A DNA stretch of 64,000 nt from Escherichia phage vB_EcoM_G2494: the sequence record MK327935.1. The stretch is one strand, 5' to 3'. The notes under the pieces were generated by a model, which was not told the DNA's origin, did not search any database, and saw nothing but the letters and a program-made list of their open reading frames with translations. Both the position numbers and the translations under genes were made by a program. Shown here in pieces: positions 18,132-18,743 of the stretch. Position 1 is the first letter of the stretch; every line of letters starts with the position of its first letter.

Positions 18132-18334
18132 TTACATTTAGGGCAATGCGGTTCTTTAATATAATACCCGTCTGTCTTTGGAACACTAACAGGAGCGGTT
18201 TTTATATTGTATTCAGTGAAACAACGAAAACAAGTTACGTTTTCTACAGACTGACGTTTCACCCAATCACCGGAATATAGATCATTTTTATTTGTCATAT
18301 TCAACCACCACAATGTTAATGTCTGGAGTAGCAA
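18104..18334 (-). CDS. zinc-ribbon-like small protein
   Basis: ORF track 76 aa; CFRC...CPKCKC. Confidence 0.4.
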   Translation of the reverse strand: MLLQTLTLWWLNMTNKNDLYSGDWVKRQSVENVTCFRCFTEYNIKTAPVSVPKTDGYYIKEPHCPKCKCRLYWSHL

Positions 18335-18743
18335 TATTAATGATCTCTTCTACACATTCCCACTCAAGGCCACCGATACCGCAACCGATTTTAGGAATAT
18401 AGAAAGGCTGTATAGCACCTTCAAAAACATCATTGATAGTCTCAAATCCTTTCAGGATAGCACCATATTCAGCATTTGGACCCGGTCGGAATTGGGTATA
18501 GAGATTCACCCCGCACCAGTTATAACCATTAACTTGATGCGTCCAGACACTAAACCCACCCAGCTTTTCTACCTTACCGCGAGAAGTTTGCTTGTCAATC
18601 TCTAACGCTTGCGGGAACTCTTTCGCGATCTTTGCAGCAATACCAGCGCCCATAGTATGAAAACAATTACAACCATGAATTAAATGACCGTTTCCTTGTT
18701 TAAACAGGGCGATGAGATCGCCCTTTACAGTATCAATAATCAT
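18288..18743 (-). CDS. macro-domain-like protein (putative ADP-ribose binding/hydrolase)
   Basis: 151 aa; GDLI...HLIHGCNCFHTMGAGIAAKI and IPKIGCGIGGL resemble macro-domain glycine-rich motifs (eye-level match only). Confidence 0.45.
   Translation of the reverse strand: MIIDTVKGDLIALFKQGNGHLIHGCNCFHTMGAGIAAKIAKEFPQALEIDKQTSRGKVEKLGGFSVWTHQVNGYNWCGVNLYTQFRPGPNAEYGAILKGFETINDVFEGAIQPFYIPKIGCGIGGLEWECVEEIINIATPDINIVVVEYDK

What the first reader, a model, noticed from the sequence alone, without database searches (positions are those of the whole stretch)
18288..18743. Macro-domain-like protein in the early region (possible ADP-ribose processing or anti-defence factor)
The 151-aa product has glycine-rich motifs (HGCNCFHTMGAGIAAKI and IGCGIGGL) arranged like the nucleotide-binding loops of macro domains. 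Phage macro-domain proteins can reverse ADP-ribosylation or bind ADP-ribose-derived signals, so this is a candidate counter-defence gene.
Basis: inference. Interest (0 to 1): 0.55.

Follow-up and report, generated by a model that had tools for sequence, protein, structure and literature searches.

The report
Phage tk.4 macrodomain, anti-DarT factor orthologue

The parts
18288..18743 (-). tk.4 / adfM orthologue: 151-aa stand-alone macrodomain protein
   Evidence: ORF; Pfam Macro; 44% identity to T4 Tk.4 over the full length, E = 9e-45; annotated tk.4 in RB49 and JSE; AF2 model and fold matches
18627..18677 (-). Motif 1, residues 23-39 (HGCNCFHTMGAGIAAKI): N-terminal substrate-binding/catalytic loop. 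H23, G24, N26, C27, G34 and A36 are invariant or nearly so
   Evidence: Conservation counts. N26 aligns with DarG N22, H23 with SCO6735 H24 and Poa1p H23
18666..18668 (-). Codon of N26, equivalent of DarG N22 and PhiKZ AdfM N23
   Evidence: Invariant in 121/121 and 136/136 family members. The N23A mutant of PhiKZ AdfM was used in that paper's de-ADP-ribosylation assay
18492..18494 (-). Codon of Q84, at the position of the catalytic lysine of DarG (K80) and TARG1 (K84), and of SCO6735 Gln85
   Evidence: HMMER alignments to M. tuberculosis DarG, TARG1, BT1257 and SCO6735. Gln in 119/121, 135/136 and 79/80 family members. SCO6735 Q85A and Q85E are inactive (PMC9411070)
18366..18389 (-). Motif 2, residues 119-126 (IGCGIGGL): diphosphate-binding loop. 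G120 and G122 are invariant. G124 sits where TARG1 has the catalytic D125
   Evidence: position 124 is Ala or Gly in 120 of 121 members, one gap, never Asp
18752..18757 (-). Shine-Dalgarno GAGAGG, 8 nt upstream of the ATG and 15 nt after the vs stop codon
   Evidence: Sequence read directly
18288..18298 (-). 11-nt overlap of the tk.4 3' end with the ATG of the next small ORF, suggesting translational coupling within an operon
18759..19118 (-). vs (valyl-tRNA synthetase modifier), the immediate upstream neighbour and a synteny anchor
   Evidence: PHROG 1256, E = 1.8e-33; RB49 and T4 annotation
17007..17603 (-). tk (thymidine kinase), a downstream synteny anchor
   Evidence: Pfam TK, E = 9.6e-52
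19803..20297 (-). regB endoribonuclease, an upstream synteny anchor (the RB49 annotation starts the CDS further in)
   Evidence: Pfam REGB_T4, E = 2e-48

Best explanation
The gene encodes the Krischvirus orthologue of T4 Tk.4 (AdfM). It is a free-standing macrodomain of the ALC1/TARG1/DarG/Poa1p-like class that acts as an orphan, antitoxin-like enzyme. When a host DarTG2 system is triggered, DarT2 attaches ADP-ribose to N3 of thymine in single-stranded phage DNA and blocks replication. This protein binds the ADP-ribose through its two glycine-rich loops and hydrolyses the C1''-N glycosidic bond, releasing ADP-ribose and restoring usable DNA. It works by catalysis only, because it has no DarT-binding domain. 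Its active site is not a copy of DarG's. The catalytic lysine is replaced by a family-invariant glutamine (Q84), as in SCO6735. Catalysis is therefore probably lysine-independent, with Q84 positioning the distal ribose and the backbone and water network around H23-G24-N26 doing the chemistry. What is shown: the ORF, the fold, orthology and synteny with T4 tk.4, the conserved residues, and the absence of the DarG C-domain. What is taken from the literature for homologues: the anti-DarTG2 phenotype of T4 tk.4, and thymine-ADP-ribose hydrolysis by the Gln-type SCO6735. What is inferred: that this protein has the same substrate and role.
Against: No biochemistry exists for this protein or for T4 Tk.4; the T4 preprint infers the mechanism and tested no catalytic mutant. 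At 44% identity, function transfer is plausible but not certain, and no paper in the library tests a Krischvirus against DarTG. A homologue in the same family (Gary Adpp, 33% identity to this protein and 35% to T4 Tk.4) is a proven ADPR-1''-phosphate phosphatase with the same H23/N26/Q84 core, so the core signature does not fix the substrate. The protein lacks SCO6735's long lysine-bearing mobile loop, Val25 and Lys34, which that paper links to DNA activity. I could not inspect model coordinates, so residue equivalences rest on sequence and profile alignments plus a published structure-based alignment.
Confidence: 0.6

Rival explanations
1. It is mainly an ADP-ribose-1''-phosphate phosphatase (Poa1p/Adpp-like, as the database label 'phosphatase' implies). 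It would convert ADPR-1''P, made by RES-domain NAD+ phosphorylases such as aRES, into ADP-ribose as part of NAD+ recovery.
Against: The phosphatase is useful only together with Adps and Namat, and neither gene is in the window or in a complete Krischvirus genome (best E 0.44-0.66). The window protein is closer to T4 AdfM (131 bits) than to Gary Adpp (74 bits). All 13 distinct NARP1-associated macrodomains examined have an 11-14-residue segment between Q84 and Y92, against 7 residues here and in T4; 12 of 13 have Gln or Val at position 24 and Gly, Ala or Ser at position 83 instead of Gly and Thr. The residue aligned with Poa1p S30 is variable in the family (Thr in 82/121). The T4 orthologue's only known phenotype is on DarTG2.
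Confidence: 0.15
2. It reverses ADP-ribosylation of proteins or RNA rather than DNA. For example, it could tune or erase marks made by the phage's own Alt-type ADP-ribosyltransferase, or counter other host ADP-ribosylating toxins.
For: The Krischvirus genome encodes an Alt-like ADP-ribosyltransferase (33% identity to T4 Alt, E = 2e-34). TARG1 and SCO6735 also de-modify Glu/Asp-linked protein ADP-ribose. TARG1, DarG and SCO6735 remove uracil-linked ADP-ribose from RNA.
Against: No phenotype or assay supports it. T-even phages, which carry tk.4, are strongly restricted by the mRNA ADP-ribosyltransferase system CmdTAC (abstract), so Tk.4 does not neutralise that adenine-linked mark. TARG1's protein activity uses the K84/D125 dyad, which is absent here.
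Confidence: 0.1
3. It is a non-catalytic ADP-ribose binder or sponge that sequesters ADP-ribose-derived immune signals (for example Thoeris signals) or free ADP-ribose.
For: Some macrodomains are readers only. One fused family member gives a weak ThsA_Macro match (26.5 bits).
Against: Residues at catalytic positions (H23, N26, Q84) are conserved across thousands of clusters. Both studied family members act as enzymes or are proposed to. The window protein itself gives no ThsA_Macro hit.
Confidence: 0.03

Closest known systems
T4 Tk.4 = AdfM (anti-DarT factor Macrodomain; HIDEN-SEQ preprint 10.1101/2025.11.20.689424)
   Same: Full-length homologue (44% identity, E = 9e-45). Same size, same position between vs and the small tk.x ORFs, and the same invariant residues including HGCNCFHTMG, NLYTQF-PGPN-EY and the short loop after Q84.
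   Different: 56% of residues differ. The host phage is a Krischvirus rather than a Tequatrovirus. The anti-DarTG2 phenotype has been shown only for T4, and enzymology has been shown for neither.
DarG (DarG2) antitoxin macrodomain of DarTG2 (PDB 5M3I, 5M31, 5M3E, 7OMU)
   Different: Catalytic K80 is replaced by Q84. There is no C-terminal DarT-binding domain and no adjacent toxin gene. It scores far below the NCBIfam equivalog cut-off (48 against 250 bits).
SCO6735 (Streptomyces coelicolor) and BT1257: Gln-type ALC1-like macrodomains (PDB 5E3B, 2FG1)
   Same: Gln at the lysine position (Q85 corresponds to Q84). His24 corresponds to H23 and Asn27 to N26. They are orphan genes without a cognate toxin. 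SCO6735 cleaves thymine-ADP-ribose DNA and neutralises DarT. They give the best or near-best profile matches (3e-16 and 1e-14).
   Different: The window protein has Gly where SCO6735 has Val25 and Ala where it has Lys34. Its mobile loop is about 5-6 residues shorter and lacks Lys89 and Lys93, which aid DNA binding.
Adpp of Vibrio phage Gary (NARP1-AP pathway; preprint 10.64898/2026.01.28.702374) and yeast Poa1p (PDB 6LFQ)
   Same: Same family (33% identity, E = 1e-21) and the same H23/N26/D50/K60/G62/N80/Y82/Q84 core. Both are phage counter-defence macrodomains.
   Different: Adpp is embedded in an Adps-Adpp-Namat operon, reads HQCNC and YGQ, has a 14-residue segment after the Gln, and acts on a small molecule (ADPR-1''P). 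The window phage has no NARP1.
PhiKZ gp104, also named AdfM (Cell Rep 2026, PMC13309987)
   Same: A stand-alone phage macrodomain that counters DarTG2 by removing thymine-linked ADP-ribose from DNA, shown biochemically.
   Different: It retains the DarG-type lysine (N23/K78) and is imported into the phage nucleus. It is a separate, DarG-like lineage that happens to share the name.
Human TARG1/OARD1 (PDB 4J5R, 4J5S)
   Same: Best Foldseek match (TM 0.78-0.84, 28-29% identity). It shares the MGAGIA loop and the short loop after position 84. It hydrolyses thymine- and uracil-linked ADP-ribose.
   Different: The TARG1 catalytic dyad K84/D125 corresponds to Q84/G124 here.

Membership tests
Macro domain superfamily (Pfam PF01661) | Profile score above Pfam's gathering threshold over the whole domain | tested here: met
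   28.7 bits against a cut-off of 22; profile positions 1-118 of 118
Macro domain superfamily (Pfam PF01661) | Three-layer alpha/beta/alpha macro fold | tested here: met
Macro domain superfamily (Pfam PF01661) | Binds ADP-ribose | not testable with these tools
   Only the two conserved binding loops are seen
T4 Tk.4 / AdfM orthologous group | Full-length sequence homology to T4 Tk.4 | tested here: met
   44% identity, E = 9e-45, residues 1-150 against 1-152
T4 Tk.4 / AdfM orthologous group | Conserved position tk ... tk.4 - vs - vs.1 - regB on one strand | tested here: met
T4 Tk.4 / AdfM orthologous group | Needed for growth on DarTG2-carrying hosts | not testable with these tools
   Shown only for T4; no Krischvirus data found
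DarG antitoxin (NCBIfam NF048014 equivalog) | Score at or above the curated cut-off | tested here: not met
   48.4 bits against a cut-off of 250
DarG antitoxin (NCBIfam NF048014 equivalog) | C-terminal DarT-binding domain | tested here: not met
   Only model positions 2-141 of 338 (NCBIfam) and 3-141 of 329 (PADLOC) are matched; the protein is 151 aa
DarG antitoxin (NCBIfam NF048014 equivalog) | Catalytic lysine (K80) | tested here: not met
   Q84 at that position; Gln in 119/121 family members
DarG antitoxin (NCBIfam NF048014 equivalog) | Adjacent DarT toxin gene | tested here: not met
   The neighbours are vs and a small zinc-binding ORF
TARG1/OARD1 | Lys84/Asp125 catalytic dyad | tested here: not met
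   Q84 and G124; position 124 is Ala or Gly across the family, never Asp
SCO6735-like Gln-type ALC1-like macrodomains | Gln at the DarG K80 / TARG1 K84 position | tested here: met
SCO6735-like Gln-type ALC1-like macrodomains | Val/Ile25 and an extended lysine-bearing mobile loop (stated to be SCO6735-specific) | tested here: not met
   G24 is invariant. The loop after Q84 is about 5-6 residues shorter and has no conserved Lys
Adpp (NARP1-associated ADPR-1''P phosphatase) | Encoded within or next to an Adps-Namat (NARP1) operon | tested here: not met
   No Adps or Namat in the window or in the complete Krischvirus genome OZ035808
Adpp (NARP1-associated ADPR-1''P phosphatase) | Sequence features shared by NARP1-associated macrodomains (long segment after the Gln; Gln/Val at position 24; Gly/Ala/Ser at position 83). 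This is an empirical observation made here, not a published definition | tested here: not met
   7 residues against 11-14; G24 and T83
Adpp (NARP1-associated ADPR-1''P phosphatase) | ADPR-1''P phosphatase activity | not testable with these tools
   Shown only for Gary Adpp

The most novel reading that the evidence does not exclude
The Tk.4/PHROG-335 macrodomain family is one lysine-free (His-Asn-Gln) class of hydrolases acting at the C1'' position of ADP-ribose. Its members can process both thymine-linked ADP-ribose on DNA and ADPR-1''-phosphate. A single small enzyme type would then be redeployed against two unrelated defences, DarTG2 and aRES, depending on its genomic partners (alone or with NADAR in T4-like phages; with Adps and Namat elsewhere). 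Under this reading the window protein is bifunctional, and 'AdfM' and 'Adpp' are two names for one enzymology.
Probability: 0.3. Interest if true: 0.5.

Novelty: already known. Interest (0 to 1): 0.25.

Why it matters
The finding itself adds little. The gene has been annotated as tk.4 with an A1pp/macro motif since the RB49 genome was published, and its T4 orthologue was reported in 2025 as an anti-DarTG2 factor. Two points from this work could be useful. First, T4-type AdfM proteins are not DarG mimics at the catalytic level: they carry the SCO6735-type glutamine instead of the DarG/TARG1 lysine. This predicts that mutating the lysine-equivalent position will behave differently, and that DarG-directed inhibitors or models may not transfer. 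Second, the same family contains the recently described Adpp phosphatase, so annotation pipelines that label all members either 'phosphatase' or 'anti-DarT' are over-generalising. A side-by-side substrate test would resolve what several thousand phage genes actually do.

Tried and rejected
(1) Loop length as a discriminator of function. In 80 IMG/VR loci, 28 of 30 T4-like-context genes had the short loop. None of the 80 had a complete NARP1, and three loci with only an Adps-like or a Namat-like neighbour also had short loops. The Table S1 set gave a cleaner contrast (13/13 long). I treat this as suggestive only.

(2) Looking for a DarT partner next to a bacterial family member. P0099 from Pelagimonas is an orphan with unrelated neighbours.

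(3) Literature on Krischvirus and DarTG: nothing found.

(4) Promoter and terminator scans. The counts are not above shuffled expectation, so nothing can be said about expression timing.

(5) Checking whether K60 or D50 lies in the active site. The structure tool returns no coordinates, so this was not possible.

(6) Filing the protein as DarG: rejected, because four defining features fail. Filing it as TARG1: rejected, because the dyad is absent.

(7) The NJ tree placing the window protein and T4 AdfM apart from the Adpp-context proteins has no bootstrap support and is midpoint-rooted. It carries little weight.

Full report
OBSERVATION. The ORF is real. It is an ATG-initiated reading frame of 151 codons at 18288..18743, but on the minus strand. 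A GAGAGG Shine-Dalgarno lies 8 nt upstream of the ATG. The gene starts 15 nt after the stop codon of the upstream gene, and its last 11 nt overlap the ATG of the next small ORF, so it sits in a tightly packed minus-strand operon. Against RB49 the gene differs at 4 synonymous and 2 conservative nonsynonymous codons.

WHERE THE WINDOW COMES FROM. The 3.3-kb stretch around the gene is 97.5-98.7% identical to RB49, JSE, ECD7 and other Krischvirus genomes, which are T4-related Straboviridae. One deposited phage, FL04, encodes a protein 100% identical to this one. The neighbours are rI, tk, two small zinc-binding ORFs, vs, vs.1 (SLT domain) and regB. The order tk - small ORFs - tk.4 - vs - vs.1 - regB is the same in T4 and RB49, where the gene is annotated tk.4, 'phosphatase; contains A1pp phosphatase motif'. 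The window protein and T4 Tk.4 are 44% identical over their whole length (E = 9e-45).

WHAT IS ALREADY PUBLISHED. A November 2025 preprint (HIDEN-SEQ) found tk.4 as the single T4 gene depleted on a DarTG2-expressing host. It showed that a clean knockout sensitises T4 to DarTG2, noted the structural similarity to M. tuberculosis DarG, and renamed the gene adfM. The enzymatic mechanism is stated as likely, and no catalytic mutant or assay is reported. Earlier work had shown that T4 lacking the NADAR factor AdfN remains DarTG2-resistant. Independently, PhiKZ gp104 was also named AdfM and was shown biochemically to remove thymine-linked ADP-ribose from DNA. That protein keeps the DarG residues N22 and K80 as N23 and K78.

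ACTIVE SITE. HMMER alignments of the window protein and of the family profile to solved structures place N26 on DarG N22. They place Q84 on the catalytic lysine of M. tuberculosis DarG (FPT-K-K) and of TARG1 (IT-K84-K). G124 falls on TARG1 D125. BT1257 and SCO6735 also have Gln at this position (NMIGQH). The SCO6735 paper gives the same equivalence from a structure-based alignment (Gln85 = TARG1 K84 = DarG K80). It shows that Q85A and Q85E are inactive and that SCO6735 efficiently cleaves thymine-linked ADP-ribose from ssDNA and rescues E. coli from DarT. It proposes a water-mediated, lysine-independent mechanism. In the Tk.4 family Q84 is Gln in 119/121 close homologues, 135/136 further representatives and 79/80 IMG/VR loci. 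N26, D50, N80 and Y82 are invariant, H23 and K60 nearly so, and position 124 is never Asp. The T4-type AdfM proteins are thus Gln-type, unlike DarG and unlike PhiKZ AdfM. The window protein differs from SCO6735 in having Gly for Val25, Ala for Lys34 and a shorter loop after the Gln. DarG models from NCBIfam and PADLOC match only their macro half (48 bits against a cut-off of 250), so the DarT-binding domain is absent.

A SERIOUS RIVAL FOUND ALONG THE WAY. Homologues in Vibrio phage JSF12 and Acinetobacter phage Aci05 lie between or beside genes annotated ribose-phosphate pyrophosphokinase and nicotinamide phosphoribosyltransferase. A January 2026 preprint shows that such macrodomain genes occur in 15% of NARP1 (Adps-Namat) operons. 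It also shows that the one from Vibrio phage Gary (Adpp, KNV71_gp137) is a Poa1p-like phosphatase. Adpp converts ADPR-1''-phosphate, the product of the aRES defence, into ADP-ribose so that NARP1 can rebuild NAD+. I located that gene. Gary Adpp is 33% identical to the window protein and 35% identical to T4 Tk.4 (E about 1e-22), and it shares the H23/N26/D50/K60/N80/Y82/Q84 core. One family therefore has two experimentally supported roles, and the database label 'phosphatase' is not empty.

WEIGHING THE TWO. The phosphatase only helps in combination with Adps and Namat. Neither gene is present in the window or in a complete Krischvirus genome, which has a single macrodomain gene. The window protein scores higher against T4 AdfM (131 bits) than against Gary Adpp (74 bits). 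Thirteen distinct NARP1-associated macrodomains from the preprint's Table S1 all have 11-14 residues between Q84 and Y92, against 7 in the window protein and T4 AdfM. Twelve of the 13 have Gln or Val at position 24 and Gly, Ala or Ser at position 83, where the window protein and T4 have Gly and Thr. In 80 independent viral loci, 28 of 30 genes in T4-like context have the short loop. Three loci with only an Adps-like or only a Namat-like neighbour also have short loops, so the feature is suggestive and not diagnostic. An unsupported NJ tree separates the window protein and T4 AdfM from the Adpp-context proteins. Two family members are fused to NADAR, the guanine-ADP-ribose DNA hydrolase domain. 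The Krischvirus genome encodes an AdfN-like NADAR, as T4 does. Both points fit a role in DNA-base de-ADP-ribosylation.

CONCLUSION. The most likely function (confidence about 0.6) is an orphan, purely enzymatic anti-DarTG2 factor that removes ADP-ribose from thymine in phage ssDNA using a Gln-type, lysine-independent active site. A primary ADPR-1''P phosphatase role is less likely (about 0.15). A dual-substrate enzyme is not excluded (about 0.3). Protein or RNA de-ADP-ribosylation is possible because the phage has an Alt-like transferase, but it is unsupported, and T-even phages remain sensitive to the mRNA ADP-ribosylating system CmdTAC. A binding-only role is unlikely.

Noticed in passing
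window 28995-29465 (-): A 156-aa ORF matches Pfam Acb1 (anti-CBASS 2H phosphodiesterase) at E = 1.3e-51. It is annotated 57B / 'RNA ligase' in RB49. This is a second counter-defence gene about 10 kb from tk.4.
   Followed up: partly
window 28072-28275 (-): Dmd homologue (Pfam Dmd, E = 1.5e-15; 47% identity to T4 Dmd), the phage antitoxin against RnlA/LsoA.
   Followed up: partly
window 17889-18131 (-) and 18104-18334 (-; RB49 annotation starts at the ATG at 18298): Two small ORFs immediately downstream of tk.4 carry phage zinc-binding domains (PF23895, E = 5.7e-34; PF23903, E = 1.8e-23). Their start and stop codons overlap those of their neighbours. Function is unknown. They occupy the place of T4 tk.1-tk.3.
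   Followed up: no
proteins P0172 (472 aa), P0224 (570 aa), P0168 (302 aa): Tk.4-type macrodomains occur fused to NADAR and/or DUF4326 domains (Macro-NADAR-DUF4326; X-Macro-NADAR; DUF4326-Macro). These could be single proteins able to reverse both thymine- and guanine-linked DNA ADP-ribosylation.
   Followed up: partly
L009 (Krischvirus OZ035808) 40026-40469 and 29225-29905; outside the window: The same phage type encodes an AdfN-like NADAR (38% identity to T4 30.3, E = 1e-24) and an Alt-like ADP-ribosyltransferase (33% identity, E = 2e-34). No AdfA (T4 61.2) homologue was detected.
   Followed up: partly
literature: The name AdfM has been given independently to two different macrodomain lineages: T4 Tk.4 (Gln-type, genetics only) and PhiKZ gp104 (Lys-type, DarG-like, biochemistry shown). 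The shared name hides a mechanistic difference.
   Followed up: yes
L046, L072, L091 (IMG/VR loci): Three Tk.4-type genes with short or medium loops after Q84 (5, 5 and 8 residues) have an Adps-like or a Namat-like gene, but not both, within 4 kb. It is unclear whether these are NARP2/PRPP-type genes or degenerate NARP1.
   Followed up: no
window 18780-18794 (-) and 19081-19109 (-): A weak terminator-like hairpin lies inside the 3' end of vs, just upstream of tk.4. A strong sigma-70-like match (TTGACA-17-TATGAT with an upstream TG, 11/12) lies inside the 5' end of vs. Neither class of site is enriched over shuffled sequence.
   Followed up: no
window residues D50 and K60 of the tk.4 product (nt 18594-18596 and 18564-18566, -): D50 is invariant (121/121 and 136/136) and K60 nearly so (Lys or Arg), but neither corresponds to a described catalytic residue of DarG, TARG1 or SCO6735. 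D50 lies in a segment that is gapped in the TARG1 alignment. Their roles are unexplained, and I could not inspect model coordinates.
   Followed up: no
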